Positions 480-17,090 of a stretch of DNA of 18,152 nucleotides are shown one piece after another. The notes beneath the pieces were generated by a model that worked only from the letters and a program-made list of their open reading frames with translations, had not been told where the DNA came from and ran no database searches. This stretch comes from a virus (taxonomy: Duplodnaviria; Heunggongvirae; Uroviricota; Caudoviricetes). Both the position numbers and the translations under genes were made by a program. The stretch spans positions 1 through 18,152 of IMG/VR virus record IMGVR_UViG_2645727555_000018; one strand, 5' to 3'. Positions within the stretch are counted from its first letter, which is position 1; every line of letters begins with the position of its first letter.

Positions 480-509
480 GATGGTTTCCTTATTAAGTTG
501 CTTCAGTGA

Positions 510-552
510 AATCATTTTCACAAATCAGATAAGGCAGAAAACAAATTGTTAT
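510..552 (-). promoter_or_regulatory. promoter/operator module: dyad GAAAACAAATTGTT (536-550) plus extended -10 TGTGAAAAT
   Basis: Same dyad recurs at least 9 times in the window. Here it sits where a -35 would be, just downstream of the terminator at 561-588 and upstream of gene 105..479. Confidence 0.4.
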
Positions 553-560
553 CGGGCATA

Positions 561-1970: not shown

Positions 1971-2277
1971 AGGCGAAAAAGGATTTTATTCCGGTGAATG
2001 TGGTTTTGGCAGTGAGTTTTCAGGTTCAGTACCGAGTACACTTTTTACATTATTCTGATTTAGTGGCCGAAAGTGGCTGGTGGGCAGAATAATCCTCTCC
2101 CCGAAAACCTACTGAAATCGATTGTGACCCGTTGGCTGTCTGGCACAATTACGCTGTAGCTGGCATTCAGAGGGAATCCAGCGGTAAGCAAGTCCGCCTG
2201 CACGTGAGCGCCTCTCTTCTTCCCGCACATTACAGGTGGGTAGCCGCAACTCTCCCTCTCGCTATACCGGTACGCCA

Positions 2278-2424
2278 CCGTTCCTGAACCGGCATCGAGC
2301 CTTTTCCCGAAATCCACACAGGCAACTCGACCGTTTCCCTGAAAACCTCCAGCCGTTCCCCGAAGGCAACCCAGCCGTTTCTGTAGCGGGATGCAGCCTT
2401 TTCCCTGTATGGACCGAAGGCTGA
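2278..2424. repeat. array of six imperfect ~22-bp tandem direct repeats (consensus CCGTTYCCYGAA-N7-8-CAG); iteron- or centromere-like
   Basis: Units start at 2278, 2300, 2331, 2353, 2375 and 2397. Three are exactly 22 bp. The period is not a multiple of 3, so the overlapping ORF 2060..2566 is unlikely to be coding. Confidence 0.55.
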
Positions 2425-2460
2425 CCGTAGGGGTGTTACGGGGGATGGAATCAGGAGTTG

Positions 2461-2494
2461 AATAAATACGAAAAAGGAGGCGACACCCCTCCTT
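2461..2494 (-). terminator. intrinsic terminator at the 3' end of the G-poor noncoding segment
   Basis: Stem AAGGAGG/CCTCCTT (2474-2480 / 2488-2494) with 7-nt loop, followed on the minus strand by UUUCGUAUUUAUU. Confidence 0.5.
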
Positions 2495-3335
2495 CCCTCT
2501 CCACTTATACATACCTGGCTTCTTCGCTATACATGTTGTGTTTTCTTCGTGTTTTATCTGTCTCAACCTCTCTATAGGCGTTAATGCTCACTCCTTCCAG
2601 AACGTTCTATACGGCGACTATTTCTGTTGGTGAATTGGGTGTGTTGTTTTCTCTGTCGGTGTATGTGGTTTCGTTAGTTTTGCGGTGGTTCTTCTATGGG
2701 GTGTTCTCGTCGTTTTGGTGATTGTTCTTCTCCGTGTATGGAGTAATGGCAGGTGGGCGAATCCTTTCGTTATTGTGTTTGAGTTGTTTGTCTGGAGTGT
2801 GAAGGGCTTTTGTAGTTATTCGTGTATTGGGTAATGGCGTTTCCCGTGATTGTTCTGTTTCGTGTCTTTTGGGATTGAGAGAATCCTTGCGGTAACAGGC
2901 TTCGTTGGGGTTTCAGTGGTTCAGGTGTTTCTTCGCTGTTTGGGTAATGGCGTGTCGTGGGTATCGCGCGTATGAATATTTTCGGATTGCCTGTGAAAGT
3001 TAGGTTGGTTGTCCGGTAGCCTGGGGAGAAGAGGTGGGTCTTTTCGGTAGCCTGCCATAAAGAGGTTGGTTGTTTTGGGGAATGGCATGTGTGTTATTTA
3101 GTTGTTTTGTTATAGCTGAAAATAAGTTGTTTATATAGTTATGTAACGCAATGGGAGTGATTTTGAGCGTGTGTTTTTGTTGGTAGTGTGTTGGGTCGTC
3201 TGTGGTGAAAATTGGACGCTGTGGCGCTGTCTGCTGCGTAGAATTACGGGTATAAGAAGTGATGTGTGAATACGTCAATTTTTTAGACCAAATCGGGTGA
3301 AAGCGTTGACGTTTCGTTGATCTGTTATTTAGTTG
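2495..3335 (-). ncRNA. candidate long noncoding transcript, C/A-rich and G-poor on the minus strand; function unknown
   Basis: No convincing ORF in any frame. Plus strand is extremely G+T rich (for 2641-2700: G20 T30 C7 A3). Bounded by a degenerate promoter motif at 3336-3370 and the terminator at 2461-2494. Contains internal repeats GGGTAATGGCG (2744, 2830, 2943, 3081) and CGGTAGCCTG (3016, 3045). Confidence 0.25.
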
Positions 3336-3370
3336 TTTTCTTATTGGTATAAACAACGTTAACCTATTGA
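3336..3370 (-). promoter_or_regulatory. degenerate copy of the promoter module (TTGTTTTCTTATTGG half-dyad)
   Basis: Matches the right half of the module (CCAATAAGAAAACAA on the minus strand) but has lost the second dyad arm and has no SD or ORF behind it. Confidence 0.3.
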
Positions 3371-3485
3371 TATTTAAAGGTGTGATTGCAGGTATGGAAG
3401 AAGAGTAGTGGCGATCAACGGATTCTTATAGAAAAGAATCAAATTGTGACCGCCATTATCAACTGATTGATTAAGCTAATTACAC

Positions 3486-4715
3486 TCAAACATCCCCGTT
3501 CTTAATCCACTGCCTGACTTGCTCGTCTTGTGCGACTTCTTTCTCATGTTTGGCAATATACAAGTCTGGCAATAGGGGTGGAGCGAATTCAGGCTCTGTC
3601 GCACGCCACTTTTCATATGCGTCACGCATGGATTTCTCAACATTCCAATGCTCCAACTCTTGGTATTCAATCGGCCAGTTATCCTGCAATCTCTTCACTG
3701 CATTAGCCAGGTCGTATCGGAAGTAAGGATTAAGACCAATGAAATTACCAGCCAGCATGTCATCAACCTCCTTCACTCTGGCAATCTTAGAAAACTTACC
3801 AATAGCAATGTTGAGGTCCCAATCTGACACGAACAACAAAAGTGCTGCAAATGCCAGAAACTTAGCTTCCCCGTATGCTCTGTCGCTAACCGTTTTTGTC
3901 TGAAACTCAATGTAATTGCCCATCACAAAACTAGTAAGCTTACAGGTCTTACTTATCTCGTCCTCCAAATGCGATGGATCGAGAATTGTGCGGTCACGAT
4001 TATTGTTTATGTGTTCTAAGATTACAGCAATGTCTCTATGTGAGACTGAAATTTCACGCAATTGCTGGAGAGTCTTGATGTGAACTCTTAGCACCTCTTT
4101 GTCAATCGCACGCTTCCAAGAAAAACCAGGCACAGTAACCTGAATGGGCGCGAAAGGTAGAATATCAGGAGTTGTCCATGCTAGATATGCATCACGTAAC
4201 CCACTAATATAATAAAGCCAGTCTAAATGCTCGCTTTCTAACCATATTTCAAATGTGGAATCCTTTCGCTTATTGAAGAACCATTCCCTCATCTGCCACA
4301 TTTTTTCTTGAGTAAATATCCCTTCCTGTATGCCGGCACAGACCAGCTTTCGTATTACCTGCGAATACTTTGTTCGATCTTTTGTGAATGAGACAAGGTG
4401 CTGCTTCACCTCAGATGTTAGTCTATCTCCATAGAAATCACATGATGGATGATGGCCTTGACCATCTTCACCGGTAAATCTGAAATGCGCCTTCTTGTGA
4501 TAGCCACCATTCCTAGTGGCTCTAACGAACGAACCACCTCCAACTTTGCAAATGGGGCAGATGATATCGTCACGGGCAATAGCATGAACCGAGCTGTCAT
4601 CTAAATTCTTTAGCGCCAAGTACTGCTCAGGATCGACTTCTTTTTGTAACGATTTTGAAAAAGCGGTATCAGTCATTCCAAGCTCCGAGCAAGGGGTTAT
4701 TTGTTCAATTATCAT
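3486..4715 (-). CDS. hypothetical 396-409 aa protein with N-terminal Cys/His zinc-ribbon-like motif; AT-rich cargo gene
   Basis: Long ORF. Motif CPICK...(29 aa)...HHPSCDF. ATG at 4676 has a GGAG SD, ATG at 4715 has none. GC content visibly lower than neighbours. None of the shared promoter modules upstream. Confidence 0.6.
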   Translation of the reverse strand: MIIEQITPCSELGMTDTAFSKSLQKEVDPEQYLALKNLDDSSVHAIARDDIICPICKVGGGSFVRATRNGGYHKKAHFRFTGEDGQGHHPSCDFYGDRLTSEVKQHLVSFTKDRTKYSQVIRKLVCAGIQEGIFTQEKMWQMREWFFNKRKDSTFEIWLESEHLDWLYYISGLRDAYLAWTTPDILPFAPIQVTVPGFSWKRAIDKEVLRVHIKTLQQLREISVSHRDIAVILEHINNNRDRTILDPSHLEDEISKTCKLTSFVMGNYIEFQTKTVSDRAYGEAKFLAFAALLLFVSDWDLNIAIGKFSKIARVKEVDDMLAGNFIGLNPYFRYDLANAVKRLQDNWPIEYQELEHWNVEKSMRDAYEKWRATEPEFAPPLLPDLYIAKHEKEVAQDEQVRQWIKNGDV

Positions 4716-5146: not shown

Positions 5147-5232
5147 TTCAACCACTCCGAAACAATTTGTTTTCTTATGTGGCTTATTATCTCAATCAAC
5201 AAAAGGTAGAAAACAAATTGTTTTAGGGCTTG
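5147..5232 (-). promoter_or_regulatory. dual-dyad promoter module: dyad 1 (5209-5224), extended -10 TGAGATAAT, dyad 2 (5158-5173), then SD
   Basis: Minus strand reads CCCTAAAACAATTTGTTTTCTACCTTTTGTTGATTGAGATAATAAGCCACATAAGAAAACAAATTGTTTCGGAG. It aligns almost base-for-base with 14040..14115. Confidence 0.45.
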
Positions 5233-5307: not shown

Positions 5308-7341
5308 TTACTTAACCTGGTGGCCAGGTTTAGCACCAGCATCCGGGCTTAACAGGAAGATATCTTTCCCGCCGGGGCCAGCAGCCATCACCATGCCTTC
5401 AGAGATACCGAAGCGCATTTTACGCGGAGCCAGGTTAGCCACCATAATGGTGTGACGACCAATCAGTGCCTGTGGATCTGGATAAGCGGAACGGATGCCT
5501 GAGAAGACATTACGCTTTTCACCACCGAGATCCAGCGTCAGGCGAAGCAGTTTGTCAGAACCTTCGACAAACTCCGCGTTTTCAATCAGCGCTACACGCA
5601 GGTCAACTTTGGCGAAGTCGTCAAAGGTGATGGTTTCCTGAATCGGGTCGTCAGCCAGTGGGCCAGTTACCGGTGCAGCTGTGGCTTTCACTTCTTCTTT
5701 GGATGCTTCCACCAGTGCTTCCACCTGTTTCATATCGATACGGTTATACAGTGCCTTGAACGGATTCACTTTATGGCCCAGCAGCGGTTGCTGGATACCA
5801 TCCCAGGTCAGTTCTGTATTCAGGAATGCTTCTGCACGTTCAGTCAGTTTCGGCAGTACCGGTTTCAGGTACGTCATCAGCACGCGGAACAGGTTAATGC
5901 CCATAGAGCAAATCGCCTGCAGATCGGCATCGCGTCCTTCCTGCTTCGCCACCACCCACGGAGCCTGTTCATCGACATAGCGGTTAGCCAGATCAGCCAG
6001 CGCCATGATTTCACGAATCGCTTTACCAAATTCGCGGCTTTCCCATGCTTCACCAATCACTTCAGCGGCATCAGTAAAGGTTTTGTACAGTTGCGGGTCA
6101 GCCAGTTCGCCTGCCAGCACACCGTCAAAACGCTTATTGATAAAGCCCGCGTTACGGGACGCCAGATTCACCACTTTGTTCACGATATCGGCATTCACGC
6201 GCTGAACGAAATCCTCCAGGTTGAGATCGATATCATCAATGCGCGAAGAGAGTTTCGCAGTGTAGTAGTAACGCAGGCTGTCAGCGTCAAAATGATTCAG
6301 CCAGGTGCTGGCTTTAATAAAGGTGCCGCGAGACTTGGACATCTTCGCACCGTTCACCGTCACATAGCCATGAACAAATAGGTTGGTCGGCTTGCGGAAG
6401 TTGCTGCCTTCCAGCATGGCAGGCCAGAACAGGCTGTGGAAGTAAACGATATCTTTACCGATGAAGTGGTACAGCTCGGCGGTGGAGTCTTTCTTCCAGT
6501 ATTCGTCGAAGCTGGTAGTGTCGCCGCGTTTGTCGCACAGATTCTTGAAGGAACCCATGTAGCCAATCGGTGCGTCCAGCCAGACGTAGAAATATTTGCC
6601 CGGTGCGTTCGGAATTTCAAAACCGAAGTACGGCGCATCGCGGGAGATATCCCACTGTTGCAGGCCAGATTCAAACCACTCCTGCATTTTGTTTGCCACC
6701 TGCTCCTGCAACGCACCGCTGCGGGTCCATGCCTGCAACATTTCGCTGAAAGAGGGCAGATCAAAGAAGAAGTGTTCGGAATCACGCATTACCGGCGTAG
6801 CACCAGAAACTACCGATTTCGGCTCGATCAGTTCAGTCGGGCTGTAAGTCGCGCCGCAGACTTCACAGTTATCGCCGTATTGATCTGGCGCTTTACATTT
6901 AGGACAGGTGCCTTTTACAAAACGGTCCGGCAGGAACATGCCTTTTTCCGGGTCGTACAACTGAGAGATAGTGCGGTTTTTAATAAAACCGTTCTCTTTC
7001 AGGCGAGTATAGATAAGCTCAGACAACTGACGGTTCTCTTCGCTGTGCGTCGAGTGATAGTTGTCATAGCTGATGTTAAAGCCTGCGAAATCAGTCTGGT
7101 GTTCCTGACTCATTTCGCCAATCATCTGCTCCGGTGTGATACCAAGTTGCTGTGCTTTCAGCATGATCGGCGTACCGTGGGCATCGTCGGCACAGATGAA
7201 ATTAACCTCGTGGCCGCGCATTCGCTGGTAACGAACCCAGACATCAGCCTGGATGTGCTCCAGCATATGGCCGAGGTGGATTGAGCCGTTAGCGTACGGC
7301 AGCGCGCACGTCACCAGAATTTTCTTCGCGACTTGGGTCAT
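5308..7341 (-). CDS. metG: methionine--tRNA ligase (677 aa)
   Basis: N-terminus [29 protein letters not shown] with the class I HIGH-type motif (HLGH), the KMSKS motif (GAKMSKSRG) and a zinc-knuckle CPKC...CEVC. ORF extends to 7470 but the conserved start is ATG(7341). Confidence 0.97.
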
Positions 7342-7498
7342 AGTAGGCATTACTTCTTTGTAGTGAAAAGGGGCTTGATAGTAACAAAATGGCCTTATGT
7401 CTGCCATGTGATAACAGCATTTCTCATAAATGATTAAATGTCGCAGCTGGAGTACACTACAAGGCGACAATTGCGCAAATTAAAATAAAGGAGACGGG
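7342..7498. promoter_or_regulatory. divergent metG / apbC promoter region
   Basis: 157-bp AT-rich intergenic spacer between the two divergent start codons; AAGGAG SD precedes the apbC ATG. Confidence 0.5.
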
Positions 7499-8599
7499 AT
7501 GAGCGAGTCCAAATCGCCGGATGCCCTGAGAGCAATGGTAGCCGGTACGCTGGCTAATTTTCAGCACCCAACCCTGAAACACAACCTGACTACGCTTAAA
7601 GCGTTACACCATGTTGCGTTGATGGATGACACACTGCATGTCGAACTAATCATGCCTTTCGTGTGGAATAAGCCTTTTGAAGACCTGAAAGAGCAATGTA
7701 GTGGTGATCTGCTCCGTATCACTGGCGCAAAGGCTATTGACTGGAAGCTGTCGTACAACATTGCCACGCTTAAGCGCGTCAAAAACCAACCAGGCATTAA
7801 TGGTGTTAAGAATATTATCGCCGTAAGCTCAGGCAAGGGCGGTGTAGGCAAATCGTCCACAGCAGTAAACTTGGCACTGGCTTTGGCTGCTGAAGGTGCG
7901 AAAGTTGGTATTTTGGATGCCGATATCTATGGTCCATCAATTCCAACCATGCTGGGCGCGGAAAACCAACGTCCAACCTCACCTGACGGTACTCACATGG
8001 CACCTATCATGTCTCATGGCCTGGCAACCAACTCTATTGGTTATCTGGTCACCGACGACAATGCAATGGTGTGGCGTGGACCGATGGCCAGCAAGGCGCT
8101 GATGCAGATGTTGCAGGAAACTCTATGGCCTGATCTGGACTATCTCGTTCTCGATATGCCGCCGGGCACTGGTGATATTCAGTTGACGCTGGCGCAGAAC
8201 ATTCCTGTAACTGGTGCGGTTGTGGTAACTACGCCGCAAGACATCGCGCTGATCGATGCGAAGAAAGGCATTGTGATGTTCGAAAAAGTCGAAGTGCCGG
8301 TACTAGGTATCGTCGAAAACATGAGTGTGCATATTTGCAGTAACTGCGATCATCACGAGCCAATTTTTGGCACCGGTGGCGCACAGAAACTGGCCGAGAA
8401 ATACAACACGCAGTTGTTAGGCCAAATGCCACTTCATATCTCTCTTCGTGAAGATCTGGATAACGGAACACCAACCGTTATTAGTCGTCCAGATAGCGAA
8501 TTTACGGCTATTTATCGTGACCTCGCAGATCGCGTTGCTGCCCAAATGTATTGGCAAGGTGAAGTAATACCTGGCGAAATCGCATTCCGCGCAGTGTGA
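7499..8599 (+). CDS. apbC: iron-sulfur cluster carrier ATPase ApbC/Mrp
   Basis: P-loop GKGGVGKS, CSNC motif, C-terminal ...GEVIPGEIAFRAV; full-length 366-aa ORF. Confidence 0.95.
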   Translation: MSESKSPDALRAMVAGTLANFQHPTLKHNLTTLKALHHVALMDDTLHVELIMPFVWNKPFEDLKEQCSGDLLRITGAKAIDWKLSYNIATLKRVKNQPGINGVKNIIAVSSGKGGVGKSSTAVNLALALAAEGAKVGILDADIYGPSIPTMLGAENQRPTSPDGTHMAPIMSHGLATNSIGYLVTDDNAMVWRGPMASKALMQMLQETLWPDLDYLVLDMPPGTGDIQLTLAQNIPVTGAVVVTTPQDIALIDAKKGIVMFEKVEVPVLGIVENMSVHICSNCDHHEPIFGTGGAQKLAEKYNTQLLGQMPLHISLREDLDNGTPTVISRPDSEFTAIYRDLADRVAAQMYWQGEVIPGEIAFRAV

Positions 8600-8636: not shown

Positions 8637-9026
8637 CTACATCACAGGACAATCATCAAACTCGCCACTTCTTGCGTCGTTGATAATGTGAGTGATCACA
8701 CCAAACACGGCATTGCTGCCCGTGCATCCATCATCATCCTTTGGCAATGCTTCCTTCTTACCAGTTCTTAAATCCTCCAGATGCTGACGTGGATACTTCC
8801 GGTATCTTTTTACGCGATATTCCCCATCCAGAGCACATACAAGAAGAGATCCATCAACAGGAGTCAGTGAGGAATCGACCACCAGCAATGCACCCTGCAA
8901 TATTCCCTCACGATGATGACTATCAGCCGCCCTCATGAAGTAGGTCGCTGAAGGATGTCTAATTATCTGCTGATCAAGAGAAATACGGCTCTCAGCATAA
9001 TCCGCCGCAGGAGAAGGGAAGCCCAT
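8637..9026 (-). CDS. UmuD'-like S24 peptidase-family protein encoded without the N-terminal arm (humD-like)
   Basis: Begins MGFPSPAADY, i.e. at the position of the UmuD Cys24-Gly25 autocleavage site. Ser (AADSH) and Lys (EYRVKRY) of the catalytic dyad are present. C-terminal VFGVITHII matches UmuD VFGVVIHVV. No umuC-like gene is adjacent. Confidence 0.85.
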   Translation of the reverse strand: MGFPSPAADYAESRISLDQQIIRHPSATYFMRAADSHHREGILQGALLVVDSSLTPVDGSLLVCALDGEYRVKRYRKYPRQHLEDLRTGKKEALPKDDDGCTGSNAVFGVITHIINDARSGEFDDCPVM

Positions 9027-14039: not shown

Positions 14040-14115
14040 TCTTAACTCCGTTGTTTTCTAGTTGTGGTTATTTTCACAAATAAGAAAAGGTAGAAAACAA
14101 TTTATTTAAGGCCAC
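14040..14115 (-). promoter_or_regulatory. dual-dyad promoter module for the 8-gene operon
   Basis: Minus strand reads GCCTTAAATAAATTGTTTTCTACCTTTTCTTATTTGTGAAAATAACCACAACTAGAAAACAACGGAG. Aligns with 5147..5232, including the TTGTTTTCTACCTTTT block and a TGnGAAAAT extended -10. Confidence 0.45.
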
Positions 14116-16990: not shown

Positions 16991-17040
16991 AATTACACCA
17001 TTAAATAATTTGTTTTCTGATTGGTGTAATTATCGCAAAC
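16991..17040 (-). promoter_or_regulatory. promoter/operator module for the methyltransferase operon: TGCGATAAT extended -10 plus dyad
   Basis: Minus strand reads TTGCGATAATTACACCAATCAGAAAACAAATTATTTAATGGTGTAATT then ATG. A 10-bp inverted repeat AATTACACCA/TGGTGTAATT (16991-17000 / 17022-17031) brackets the dyad and abuts the start codon. Confidence 0.45.
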
Positions 17041-17090
17041 TTGAAAAGGCATAAAAGCTGCATTCATAGGCGTTACAGCAGATTTAAGGC

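What the first reader, a model, noticed from the sequence alone, without database searches (positions are those of the whole stretch)
2495..3370. About 0.9 kb ORF-free segment with extreme strand skew, flanked by a promoter remnant and a terminator
The plus strand of 2580-3350 is overwhelmingly G+T (about 80 percent in sampled 60-nt blocks). No frame carries a credible ORF. The only listed ORF (3000..3356) is the translated promoter motif followed by low-complexity Q/T/P. The segment starts at a degenerate promoter module (3336-3370) and ends at a clean minus-strand terminator (2461-2494). It also contains internal repeats (GGGTAATGGCG four times; CGGTAGCCTG twice). A minus-strand transcript would be C/A-rich and G-poor, which is typical of Rho loading (rut) regions. 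The plus-strand RNA would be G/U-rich, the kind of sequence that forms R-loops at some replication origins. Either reading is unusual for a compact accessory element.
Basis: partly seen in the sequence, partly recalled or inferred. Interest (0 to 1): 0.75.

Follow-up and report, generated by a model that had tools for sequence, protein, structure and literature searches.

The report
Conserved non-coding C-rich transcription stop zone
This 0.9-kb gene-free stretch is a conserved core part of SSU5-type phage-plasmids, and its sense strand is so C/A-rich and G-poor that it most likely makes the termination factor Rho stop transcription leaving a swappable cargo gene before it reaches the silent early phage genes.

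Summary
On the + strand, 2580-3350 is 71% G+T (up to 84% per 100 nt). It is the only such kilobase in the 110-kb replicon.

The window is an SSU5/pHCM2-type phage-plasmid. The segment is not a decayed gene. It occurs in 840 plasmids of seven or more enterobacterial genera, and the skew is kept in all of them. It forms a low-diversity island between two slots of variable genes.

Read on the − strand, it starts at the upstream gene's stop codon with a conserved stem-loop that has no U-tract. An unbroken 920-nt C>G bubble follows, with an area of 15,845 %·bp (in vitro all templates above 700 terminated). It ends at a hairpin terminator whose G·U pairs work only in − strand RNA.

In a 96%-identical relative (Cyrano), public RNA-seq shows the upstream gene at 50-590 FPKM and the segment at the floor.

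Best reading (about 0.4): a Rho-dependent termination zone with an intrinsic terminator as back-up, shielding repeat arrays and early genes. This does not explain the embedded conserved repeats and operator-like modules, so a lytic-phase RNA or a DNA cis-element remains possible. The R-loop reading is not supported. I found no description of it in the papers I searched.

The parts
3486..4715 (-). Upstream cargo gene (409 aa, PHROG 12525, function unknown). It sits in a variable slot.
   Evidence: One search gives the ORF; searches find no known family. Relatives carry at least 8 unrelated genes here, nearly always co-oriented, with the stop codon 22-45 nt before the conserved block.
3404..3458 (-). 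Conserved two-part RNA stem-loop with no U-tract after it. Outer stem 3454-3447 / 3417-3410; inner stem 3440-3434 / 3427-3421. Proposed protective 3' stem-loop for the cargo mRNA.
   Evidence: It folds at -11 to -21 kcal/mol in 12 representative sequences. The outer stem is invariant or nearly so. The inner stem differs between clades but still folds, with U·G pairs in the SSU5 type. Diversity within the E. coli clade is 0.023, against 0.51 just upstream.
2566..3485 (-). Single unbroken C>G bubble on the non-template strand: the candidate Rho-loading and termination zone.
   Evidence: 843 consecutive 78-nt windows have %C>=%G. Area 15,845 %·bp, mean C-G 18.8%. The median C/G ratio is 2.33 inside against 0.89 in the rest of the window. 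Threshold from PMC6144790.
3323..3377 (-). Degenerate promoter/operator module, copy 1 (AAGAAAACAACTAAATAACA on the − strand).
   Evidence: It is a direct repeat of 3092-3146 (71% over 55 nt; 17 nt exact) and is related to the module family of early-gene promoters. It is invariant in alignment A1.
3268..3316 (.). Inverted repeat GTTGACGTTTCG (3305-3316, + strand) / ATTGACGTATTC (3279-3268, − strand). Probably a regulator-binding site.
   Evidence: Read from the sequence. It is the most conserved block of the island, 0.92-0.93 identity across 41 homologs.
3250..3278 (-). Weak sigma-70-like promoter candidate: -35 TTGACG (3278-3273), 17-nt spacer, -10 TTATAC (3255-3250).
   Evidence: Both hexamers are invariant in seven BLAST-derived homologs. 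The consensus scan did not call it because there is no T at -7. In Cyrano lysogens the region just downstream is at the RNA-seq floor.
3092..3146 (-). Promoter/operator module copy 2. In SSU5-type relatives it holds a compact palindrome, TTGTTTTC-N8-GAAAACAA.
3014..3075 (+). Two tandem 31-nt units (CGGTAGCCTG...GAGGTGGGTC); relatives have three.
   Evidence: CAGGCTAC and ACCTCTT are invariant across clades. CAGGCT occurs 10 times against 0.5 expected.
2741..3087 (+). Four same-orientation copies of GTAATGGC, at 2741, 2829, 2942 and 3077. On the − strand the unit reads GCCATTACyCmATACACGGAGAAGAACA. Relatives have 4-6 copies, and spacing is not conserved.
   Evidence: GCCATT occurs 21 times against 0.5 expected in five clade representatives. 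The copy at 2712-2771 is the best conserved stretch of the body.
2580..3250 (-). C/A-rich body (A 40, C 32, G 13, U 15% as RNA). It is non-coding and has very little predicted structure.
   Evidence: Composition. Folding energy is -110.7 kcal/mol for 791 nt, z = +0.09 against shuffles. Homologs differ by 1-nt indels and ORFs are not conserved. The skew is kept in all clades.
2525..2574 (-). About 50 nt of sequence specific to the E. coli clade, between the body and the terminator.
   Evidence: This stretch is a gap in 42-46% of homologs (alignment).
2471..2497 (-). Intrinsic terminator closing the unit: GGAAGGAGGGGTGTCGCCTCC plus TTTTT.
   Evidence: The hairpin is kept in 20 sequence variants, with many G·U pairs and one GC/AU/GU compensatory pair, so it works in − strand RNA. 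The U-tract is good only in the E. coli clade.
2270..2420 (.). Neighbouring element: six 22-bp-periodic repeats (GCC(G/T)TT(T/C)CC) inside a G+C-rich block at 2060-2460.
   Evidence: Neither strand folds better than shuffles. A second cluster lies 3.1 kb away.

Best explanation
The segment is an autonomous, conserved, non-coding transcription-stop module of SSU5-type phage-plasmids. It works in the − direction.

Proposed sequence of events:
1. RNA polymerase leaves the cargo gene, which is expressed in the lysogen, and transcribes a stable stem-loop with no U-tract.
2. [quoted passage not shown]
3. Rho loads on this RNA and releases the polymerase.
4. Exonucleases trim the mRNA back to the stem-loop.
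5. Any polymerase that escapes, or that starts inside the segment, meets the intrinsic terminator at 2497-2471.

The module would shield the 22-bp repeat arrays and the repressed early genes downstream from read-through.

Shown here: the composition, the boundaries, conservation in 840 plasmids, non-coding status, RNA-level conservation of the closing hairpin, and the transcript drop in a close relative.

Inferred: that Rho is the agent, and that protecting the downstream block is the selected benefit.

Not explained: the 4-6 GCCATTAC units, the CAGGCTAC units and the two operator-like modules inside the body. I take these to be binding sites for a phage regulator (a roadblock or a controlled internal promoter), but that is a guess.
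For: - The C>G bubble runs 3485 to 2566: 843 window starts, area 15,845 %·bp. That is four times the next largest on that strand of the 110-kb replicon, and it starts at the stop codon. In PMC6144790 every tested template with a bubble over 78 bp, or an area over 700 %·bp, gave Rho-dependent termination. The top descriptors there were %C, %G, %CA, %ACA, %CAC and weak folding.
- The RNA is structure-poor: -0.14 kcal/mol per nt, z = 0.09.
- A [(YC)N9-13] chain of 7 is present, and there are 121 YC dimers against 88±11 in other windows.
- A stem-loop without a U-tract sits just upstream of the C-rich RNA. This is the published layout of Rho-dependent 3' ends (PMC6061677).
- RNA-seq of Cyrano (96% identical in this segment): CYRAN_102 is at log2 5.6-9.2, while CYRAN_103, which starts 110 nt downstream inside the segment, is at 2.32-4.27 in all 10 samples.
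- The upstream slot is a cargo hotspot, and the gene in it is nearly always co-oriented with the segment.
- Composition is maintained while sequence drifts. Between clades (59-70% identity) the substitution mix looks like draws from the skewed composition, and the skew is kept in every clade.
- Recent polymorphisms show no + strand deamination bias, so selection rather than mutation keeps the skew.
- The closing hairpin is conserved through G·U pairs and a compensatory pair valid only in − strand RNA.
- The segment is as prevalent as the flanking core genes: 243 against 239 E. coli plasmids.
Against: - About 100-150 nt of C-rich RNA would be enough to terminate. A 0.9-kb zone kept in a size-limited phage genome needs a further reason.
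- The body contains conserved sequence-specific islands (GCCATTAC units, CAGGCTAC units, inverted repeats, operator-like modules). Rho loading does not need them.
- In Klebsiella-type relatives the adjacent genes point away from the segment, yet it is retained.
- The YC-chain measure is not exceptional: 7, against up to 8 elsewhere.
- The RNA-seq comes from a relative. It is counted per annotated ORF, and I could not check its strandedness or any Rho-inhibited condition.
- No experiment here shows Rho dependence.
Confidence: 0.4

Rival explanations
1. The segment is a lytic-phase non-coding RNA gene. An operator-controlled internal promoter (3278-3250 and/or the two modules) fires after induction. 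It makes a roughly 0.78-kb unstructured C/A-rich RNA that ends at the 2497-2471 terminator. The RNA acts in trans as a decoy or sponge. It could act through its repeated GCCAUUAC...CGGAGAAGAAC units (binding a protein or sRNA), or through its bulk composition (titrating Rho, or G/U-rich sRNA seeds such as GcvB R1).
For: - The layout looks like a gene cassette: promoter-like block, body, then an RNA-level conserved terminator.
- The modules resemble those of neighbouring early genes, which are repressed in lysogens.
- There are 4-6 same-orientation motif copies whose spacing is neither conserved nor in helical phase. That fits RNA sites better than cooperative DNA sites.
- The motifs are strongly over-represented.
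- The segment is retained where no upstream gene reads into it.
- From my own knowledge: prophage-encoded anti-sRNAs (AgvB) and the GcvB sponge SroC are precedents.
Against: - The promoter candidate lacks the -7 T and was not called by the scan.
- The first 250 nt of the putative RNA are at the RNA-seq floor in all 10 Cyrano samples. This includes samples where neighbouring early genes rise about 8-fold.
- An untranslated C-rich RNA should itself be terminated by Rho.
- Complementarity to GcvB R1 is no better than in shuffles (-18.05 against -17.56±0.62) and only about 0.7 SD better than the rest of the window.
- GGA (CsrA) and ACA (MazF) motifs are not enriched.
- There is no excess antisense complementarity to the plasmid's own transcripts.
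Confidence: 0.22
2. The whole 1.4-kb conserved island (3460-2080) is a cis-acting DNA element, for example the lytic replication origin or another protein-assembly site. The motif arrays, inverted repeats, the two AT-rich 17-mer islands and the 22-bp iteron-like repeats would bind phage proteins. The strand asymmetry would serve a strand-specific step such as helicase loading or structure-free single-stranded DNA. The RNA hairpins would simply insulate the element from transcription.
For: - The island is a low-diversity stretch (pi 0.02-0.05) between two mosaic gene slots (pi 0.2-0.5), as expected of an essential cis site.
- It is transcriptionally silent in lysogens.
- Six repeats sit at 22-bp spacing, and a second cluster lies 3.1 kb away. 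From my own knowledge, this recalls the ori/crr pair of phage P4.
- It holds many distinct repeated motifs and palindromes.
- C/A-only and G/T-only strands cannot fold or carry -10 hexamers, so the DNA is free of structure and of promoters.
- The replicon encodes its own DnaE, primase, DnaB-like helicase, UvsW-like helicase and RNase HI, and no lytic origin has been assigned.
Against: - No initiator gene is recognisable nearby; all neighbours are of unknown function.
- The plasmid's RepB replicon is 34 kb away.
- There are no DnaA boxes.
- The segment is not AT-rich (GC 43-48%).
- Motif spacing varies between clades and is not in helical phase.
- No known origin needs 750 bp of keto skew.
- The skew stops at RNA landmarks (the stop codon, and about 70 nt before the terminator), which points to a transcription unit.
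- Polymorphisms show no single-strand deamination signature.
Confidence: 0.2
3. The + strand is transcribed into G/U-rich RNA, which forms a persistent R-loop that primes replication.
For: - + strand GC skew of +0.4 to +0.6 is in the range used to predict R-loop-prone DNA.
- The element encodes RNase HI and a UvsW-like helicase.
- Iteron-like repeats lie next to the segment.
Against: - There is no + strand promoter at the left end (reading of 2430-2620).
- The conserved hairpins are valid only in − strand RNA.
- There is no + strand C>T excess among recent polymorphisms.
- RNA-seq is at the floor.
Confidence: 0.05
4. The segment encodes protein. Either it is a decayed or recoded − strand gene (P/T/Q/N-rich), or it carries small hydrophobic + strand peptides starting at each GGGTAATGGC (like type I toxins).
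For: - The − strand frames are fairly open: 141 and 107 codons.
- Each GTAATGGC contains an ATG opening a 14-18-codon hydrophobic ORF.
- Two phage records annotate ORFs here.
Against: - Long open frames are expected in T- and G-poor sequence.
- Homologs differ by many 1-nt indels.
- The + strand peptides vary from 10 to 63 aa, and their sequence is not conserved beyond 'MA'. Conservation lies upstream of the ATG, not in the ORF.
- The only annotated ORF here with expression data, CYRAN_103, is at the RNA-seq floor.
- No intact gene occupies this position in any of 41 homologs.
Confidence: 0.04

Closest known systems
E. coli Rho-dependent terminators (C>G bubble / rut region preceded by a protective stem-loop, as in Dar & Sorek 2018 and Nadiras et al. 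2018; lambda tR1 as the classic phage case)
   Same: [quoted passage not shown]
   Different: It is about ten times longer than the 60-80 nt that Rho needs. It is conserved as a discrete module across genera. It holds repeated sequence-specific motifs and operator-like modules, and it is closed by its own intrinsic terminator. Rho dependence is untested.
Terminators that insulate expressed 'moron' genes in temperate phages
   Same: It sits directly downstream of a variable gene that is expressed in the lysogen, inside an otherwise repressed prophage, and it stops that gene's transcript.
   Different: Morons usually bring their own short intrinsic terminator. Here the stop signal belongs to the conserved backbone, is 0.9 kb long and is based on composition.
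sRNA/protein sponge RNAs (CsrB/CsrC, SroC, prophage AgvB)
   Same: Shared features: non-coding, several copies of a short motif in single-stranded context, and an intrinsic terminator at the 3' end. C/A-rich sequence is the target type of the GcvB R1 seed (my own knowledge).
   Different: It is not expressed in lysogens. GGA is not enriched. GcvB pairing is no better than in shuffles. It is 3-10 times longer than known sponges. There is no Rfam match.
R-loop-primed or iteron-type replication origins (ColE1 RNA II, T4 oriF, P4 ori/crr, P1 oriL)
   Same: Shared features: a promoter-like block followed by a long untranslated stretch that ends next to iteron-like repeats; two repeat clusters a few kb apart; and an element-encoded RNase HI and UvsW-like helicase.
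   Different: The sense RNA is C-rich rather than G-rich. There is no hybrid energy advantage, no adjacent initiator, no DnaA boxes and no AT-rich unwinding region inside the body.

Membership tests
Rho-dependent terminator (E. coli type) | Uninterrupted C>G bubble of at least ~78-80 nt on the non-template strand | tested here: met
   3485 to 2566 on the − strand: 843 window starts, area 15,845 %·bp. Criterion from PMC6144790.
Rho-dependent terminator (E. coli type) | The RNA is not translated, so it is free of ribosomes | tested here: met
   There is no conserved ORF on either strand, homologs differ by 1-nt indels, and the zone starts at a stop codon.
Rho-dependent terminator (E. coli type) | Weak RNA secondary structure and suitably spaced YC dimers ([(YC)N9-13]n, n>=4) | tested here: met
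   -110.7 kcal/mol over 791 nt. Chain n = 7 and 121 YC dimers. The chain length is not exceptional for this replicon.
Rho-dependent terminator (E. coli type) | Stable stem-loop without a U-tract just upstream of the rut region, marking the steady-state 3' end | tested here: met
   The stem-loop at 3458-3404 folds at -11 to -21 kcal/mol in 12 representatives and is followed by C/U-rich sequence rather than a U-tract. Feature from PMC6061677. The actual 3' end has not been mapped.
Rho-dependent terminator (E. coli type) | Read-through when Rho is inhibited (bicyclomycin or rho/nusG mutants), or Rho-dependent truncation in vitro | not testable with these tools
   The only indirect evidence is the 10- to 100-fold RNA-seq drop between CYRAN_102 and CYRAN_103 in a relative.
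Intrinsic (Rho-independent) terminator, 2497-2471 | G+C-rich hairpin followed directly by a U-run | tested here: met
   The window and the E. coli clade meet this: 10-pair stem plus TTTTT. In SSU5 and Klebsiella clades the hairpin is kept but the U-run is absorbed into the stem or lost.
R-loop-primed origin (ColE1 / T4 oriF type) | A promoter producing RNA whose hybrid with the template is favoured over the DNA duplex | tested here: not met
   No + strand promoter. Hybrid-minus-duplex energy is +0.029 kcal/mol per nt for the G/U-rich RNA and -0.046 for the C/A-rich RNA, against -0.033±0.019 elsewhere (parameters from memory).
Iteron-type replication origin | Direct repeats in helical phase, next to an initiator gene, with DnaA boxes or an AT-rich unwinding element | tested here: inconclusive
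   Phased 22-bp repeats exist, but in the neighbouring block at 2270-2420, not in the skewed body. No recognisable initiator is nearby. RepB is 34 kb away. There is no DnaA box.
Protein/sRNA sponge RNA (CsrB-like, GcvB sponge) | Enrichment of the cognate motif beyond composition, and expression of the RNA | tested here: not met
   GGA occurs 8 times against 6.1±2.2 expected. GcvB R1 duplex energy equals that of shuffles. The RNA is at the floor in lysogens. Lytic-phase expression is untested.
Protein-coding gene, pseudogene or type I toxin peptide | A reading frame conserved among homologs | tested here: not met
   frame-breaking indels, peptide lengths of 10-63 aa, and no sequence conservation beyond the ATG motif.
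Known RNA family (Rfam 15) | A match at or near the gathering score | tested here: not met
   No match at the gathering threshold. Only two chance-level hits (E = 2.9 and 4.8) outside the body.

The most novel reading that the evidence does not exclude
The segment is a new kind of phage-plasmid RNA gene: a roughly 0.8-kb, structure-free, C/A-rich RNA made only after induction. It would work through its composition and its repeated GCCAUUAC...GGAGAAGAAC units as a decoy. The target could be Rho itself, which would lift Rho-dependent silencing of the phage genome, or a G/U-rich host sRNA or RNA-binding protein. An RNA that inhibits Rho has not been described in any phage.
Probability: 0.15. Interest if true: 0.8.

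Novelty: new variant of a known kind. Interest (0 to 1): 0.55.

Why it matters
- SSU5/pHCM2-type phage-plasmids are common in clinical E. coli, Klebsiella, Salmonella and Enterobacter, and they carry resistance and defence genes. How they keep the prophage silent is essentially unstudied.
- This module is a core backbone element. It is as prevalent as the flanking genes, and it sits exactly at the boundary of a cargo-insertion hotspot.
- If it is a Rho-based firewall, it shows how a mobile element can accept arbitrary expressed cargo without waking its lytic genes. It also predicts that Rho inhibition would destabilise these lysogens.
- If it is instead a lytic-phase RNA or the lytic origin, it fills a gap in the biology of this group.
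- In all cases it is a clean, testable natural example of selection on strand composition rather than on sequence.

Tried and rejected
- **Rfam:** gathering and E-value searches found nothing. No tRNA or tmRNA. No tandem repeats.
- **Structured RNA:** neither strand of the body (z = +0.09 and +1.61) nor of the G+C-rich block (z = +0.76 and +0.84) folds better than shuffles.
- **CsrA sponge:** GGA and ANGGA are not enriched.
- **MazF decoy:** ACA matches the compositional expectation.
- **GcvB sponge:** pairing to the R1 seed equals that of shuffles and is only about 0.7 SD better than the rest of the window. The single 10-nt perfect match is about what chance gives, and it lies in a clade-specific insertion.
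- **Antisense regulator of the plasmid's own mRNAs:** no k-mer excess.
- **Chi hotspot:** no Chi in the body and only one 1-mismatch match; Chi shows no orientation bias plasmid-wide.
- **DnaA boxes:** none.
- **Mutational origin of the skew:** no + strand C>T excess over G>A among 71 polarised polymorphisms.
- **Global replication skew switch:** the segment is a lone spike, not a switch point.
- **Distant relatives through a flanking protein:** that family is narrow, with only 11 hits at 54% identity or more, so this led nowhere.
- **Column-wise covariation for the inner stem of the upstream hairpin:** not possible, because the clades pair in different registers.
- **Literature:** searches on SSU5, pHCM2 and phage-plasmid non-coding elements found no description of this segment. 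One poorly targeted search was wasted, and one script call returned nothing.
Full report
**What the window is.** The segment matches plasmids only, never chromosomes: 243 E. coli plasmids, 213 of them over at least 80% of its length. NZ_CP027358.1, a 110-kb circular plasmid, is 100% identical over 2450-3400. The phage collection returns SSU5-like phage-plasmids (Cyrano, CMS-2020a, PhiR41_1 at 95-97%; SSU5 and Klebsiella phages at about 70%). Annotation of the whole replicon shows a siphovirus structural module, its own replication genes (dnaE, primase, DnaB-like helicase, ligase, RNase HI, UvsW-like helicase) and a RepB/IncFIB plasmid replicon 34 kb from the segment. Nearly all genes are on the − strand.

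**The observation.**
- On the + strand, 2580-3350 is A 16, C 12.5, G 31, T 40%, so G+T is 71%. The highest 100-nt window reaches 84%.
- The 770-nt value is about 5 SD above all other windows. GC skew is +0.4 to +0.6 and AT skew -0.3 to -0.6.
- It is the only kilobase with keto content above 0.6 in the whole replicon. Its sign is opposite to the mild G>C skew of the − strand genes around it.
- The − strand terminator at 2497-2471 is found by the scan.
- The repeat claims are partly right. GGGTAATGGCG is exact twice and has two mismatches twice; CGGTAGCCTG is exact twice.
- PGAP annotates nothing between 1936 and 3485. So the gene-free stretch is 1.55 kb and includes a G+C-rich block (2060-2460) with six repeats at 22-bp spacing.

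**It is conserved and autonomous, not a decayed gene.**
- A distant BLAST finds the segment in 840 plasmids of Klebsiella, Escherichia, Enterobacter, Salmonella, Citrobacter, Cronobacter, Shigella and others; 812 are non-mobilizable.
- The skew is present in every clade examined, with G+T at 66-71% over 450-900 nt.
- I gathered 41 distinct homologs and aligned them. Conservation starts abruptly at about 3474 and runs to about 1925.
- Between the window and SSU5 the body is 69% identical on aligned columns, comparable to flanking genes at 60-65% nt.
- Within the E. coli clade, diversity is 0.02-0.05 across 3460-2080. It jumps to 0.51 upstream and 0.2-0.4 downstream, where different genes replace one another.
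- The slot just upstream holds at least eight unrelated genes in different relatives. They are nearly always co-oriented, with the stop codon 22-45 nt before the conserved block (annotations).
- The segment is therefore a backbone island between two mosaic slots. It is as prevalent as the flanking core genes (243 against 239 E. coli plasmids).

**It is non-coding.**
- The − strand frames are fairly open, as expected for T- and G-poor sequence. However, homologs differ by many single-base indels.
- Each GTAATGGC on the + strand opens a short hydrophobic ORF. These vary from 10 to 63 codons and share little beyond 'MA'. The conserved bases lie upstream of the ATG, not inside the ORF.
- No Rfam family matches.
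- Neither strand folds better than shuffles. The C/A-rich RNA has only -0.14 kcal/mol per nt.

**Anatomy on the − strand.**
1. The cargo gene's stop codon is at 3486.
2. A conserved two-part stem-loop lies at 3458-3404, with no U-tract after it. Its outer stem is invariant. Its inner stem differs between clades but still folds, with U·G pairs in the SSU5 type.
3. A short C-rich stretch follows.
4. Next is an AT-rich block holding a degenerate copy of the early-gene promoter/operator module, an inverted repeat (GTCAAC...GTTGAC) and a weak -35/-10 pair at 3278-3250.
5. The C/A-rich body follows. It contains a second module copy (3146-3092), two or three 31-nt CAGGCTAC units, and four to six same-orientation GCCATTACyCmATACACGGAGAAGAACA units. 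Their spacing varies between clades and is not in helical phase.
6. A hairpin terminator closes the unit at 2497-2471.
7. The 22-bp repeat block comes next, and then the promoter of the next gene.

The closing hairpin is kept in 20 sequence variants through many G·U pairs and one GC/AU/GU compensatory pair. This works only in − strand RNA, so the − strand is the transcribed strand.

**Selection or mutation?**
- Between clades, substitutions in the body have roughly the mix expected from drawing bases at random from the skewed composition: A-C 30%, A-G 21%, C-T 16%, G-T 4% for the window against Klebsiella. The motif islands stay invariant. Composition is therefore held while sequence drifts.
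- Among 71 polarised polymorphisms in the E. coli clade there is no + strand C>T excess (0.068 per site, against 0.088 for G>A). Single-strand deamination of the + strand therefore does not explain the skew.
- Transcription-coupled deamination would enrich G+T on the sense strand, which is the opposite of what is seen.
- I conclude that the C/A-rich, G/U-poor sense strand is selected.

**Rho.**
- I used the published definition: 78-nt windows with %C>=%G throughout. On that measure the − strand carries a single bubble from 3485 to 2566. It spans 843 window starts, has an area of 15,845 %·bp and a mean C-G of 18.8%.
- The next largest bubble on that strand of the 110-kb replicon is 4,018 %·bp, and it lies antisense to a gene.
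- Nadiras et al. report that every tested template with a bubble over 78 bp, or an area over 700 %·bp, gave Rho-dependent termination. Their most discriminating descriptors were %C, %G, %CA, %ACA, %CAC, G-rich motifs and weak folding (PMC6144790).
- Dar and Sorek show that E. coli Rho-dependent transcripts end just after stable stem-loops that lack U-tracts, with rut sites immediately downstream (PMC6061677). That is exactly the order found here, starting at a stop codon.

**Public expression data.**
- Misson et al. re-analysed ten LF82 RNA-seq samples on Cyrano, whose segment is 96% identical to the window.
- CYRAN_102, the cargo gene ending about 11 nt before the stem-loop, is at log2 5.6-9.2 and is listed as a moron at six times background.
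- CYRAN_103, an ORF call equivalent to window 3000-3356, is at 2.32-4.27 in all samples. The floor of the table is 2.32.
- CYRAN_104, over the repeat block, is at 2.6-4.7.
- Downstream early genes rise about eight-fold in the later conditions, but CYRAN_103 does not follow.
- So transcription from the expressed cargo gene stops within about 110 nt, and no stable RNA from the segment accumulates in lysogens. I could not check the strandedness of the library, and no Rho-inhibited or fully induced condition exists.

**Interpretation.**
- The best-supported mechanism is a Rho-dependent termination zone with a protective 5' stem-loop and a back-up intrinsic terminator. It insulates the repeat arrays and repressed early genes from the cargo slot, which is expressed in the lysogen.
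- This accounts for the composition, the exact boundaries, the lack of structure and coding, the orientation, the position next to a cargo hotspot, and the RNA-seq step.
- It does not account for the length, which is ten times what Rho needs. It also does not explain the conserved sequence-specific motifs and operator-like modules, or retention in Klebsiella relatives whose neighbours point away. I therefore give it about 0.4.
- Two rivals remain at about 0.2 each. One is a lytic-phase C/A-rich RNA acting as a decoy. The other is a DNA cis-element such as the unassigned lytic origin, with the neighbouring 22-bp repeats and a second cluster 3.1 kb away.
- The R-loop reading is weak.
- I tested and did not support several specific ideas: a CsrA sponge, a MazF decoy, a GcvB sponge, an antisense regulator of the plasmid's own transcripts, and a Chi or DnaA-box cluster.

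**Novelty.** Searches of the held literature on SSU5, pHCM2 and phage-plasmids found no description of this element. If the main reading holds, it is an unusually large, conserved and motif-bearing variant of a known mechanism. If the RNA-decoy reading holds, it would be a new kind of phage RNA.

Noticed in passing
window 2270-2420 (block 2060-2460); second cluster L001 4690-4770 (NZ_CP027358.1 14425-14490): There are six copies of GCC(G/T)TT(T/C)CC at start-to-start spacing 22, 31, 22, 22, 22 bp in a G+C-rich block. Neither strand shows an RNA-fold signal. Three or four more copies of the same repeat lie 3.1 kb away in the convergent intergenic region. Together the two arrays bracket five small early genes of unknown function. 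They look like iterons or a cooperative operator array.
   Followed up: partly
window 495-555, 1934-1994, 5167-5227, 14051-14111, 17010-17070 (− strand): A family of about 60-nt promoter modules has an extended -10 (TGnGATAAT / TGnGAAAAT) flanked by the 9-bp inverted repeat TTGTTTTCT...AGAAAACAA. This is probably the operator of the phage's main repressor. Degenerate copies lie inside the segment.
   Followed up: partly
window 3486-4715 and the equivalent position in 35 related loci: This is a cargo hotspot. At least eight unrelated genes occupy the slot between the DUF5983 gene and the conserved stem-loop, including a PHROG-12525 protein, several proteins with signal-peptide-like N-termini, and DUF262 plus a type I restriction-modification system in Klebsiella. 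The slot downstream of 2080 is also mosaic within the E. coli clade.
   Followed up: partly
window 5308-8599: The divergent metG-apbC pair is 80-90% identical to the chromosomal locus of 5,334 E. coli genomes, and 95% or more identical in about 215 plasmids. It is a captured host block carried by this phage-plasmid lineage.
   Followed up: partly
L009 3001-3469 (K. michiganensis NZ_CP102105.1) and hits H60-H65: Only the promoter-proximal half of the segment (window 3014-3463) survives in large multi-replicon Klebsiella plasmids of 140-230 kb. In the one locus examined (L009) it lies between IS903-family copies.
   Followed up: partly
window 2533-2542 (− strand), inside the insertion at 2525-2574: AACACAACAU is a perfect 10-nt complement to the G/U-rich R1 seed of the host sRNA GcvB and matches its known target consensus. 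It lies about 45 nt upstream of the terminator, in sequence found only in the E. coli clade. About 0.7 such matches are expected by chance.
   Followed up: partly
window 3403-3413 (+) and 3451-3461 (−): The two outer arms of the upstream stem-loop each contain a near-copy of the repeated TAATGGCG motif, in inverted orientation. The hairpin's 3' arm is thus one more copy of the body motif (CGCCAyUAC) and its 5' arm is the complement. I found no covariation that would show pairing between the 5' arm and the downstream copies.
   Followed up: partly
window 8637-9026 (− strand); Cyrano CYRAN_98 and CYRAN_43: In Cyrano RNA-seq the S24 LexA/UmuD-like peptidase gene is among the most highly expressed phage-plasmid genes and rises strongly in the later conditions. 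A 555-nt 'hypothetical protein' (CYRAN_43, outside this window) is 723 times background and may be an RNA rather than a protein gene.
   Followed up: no
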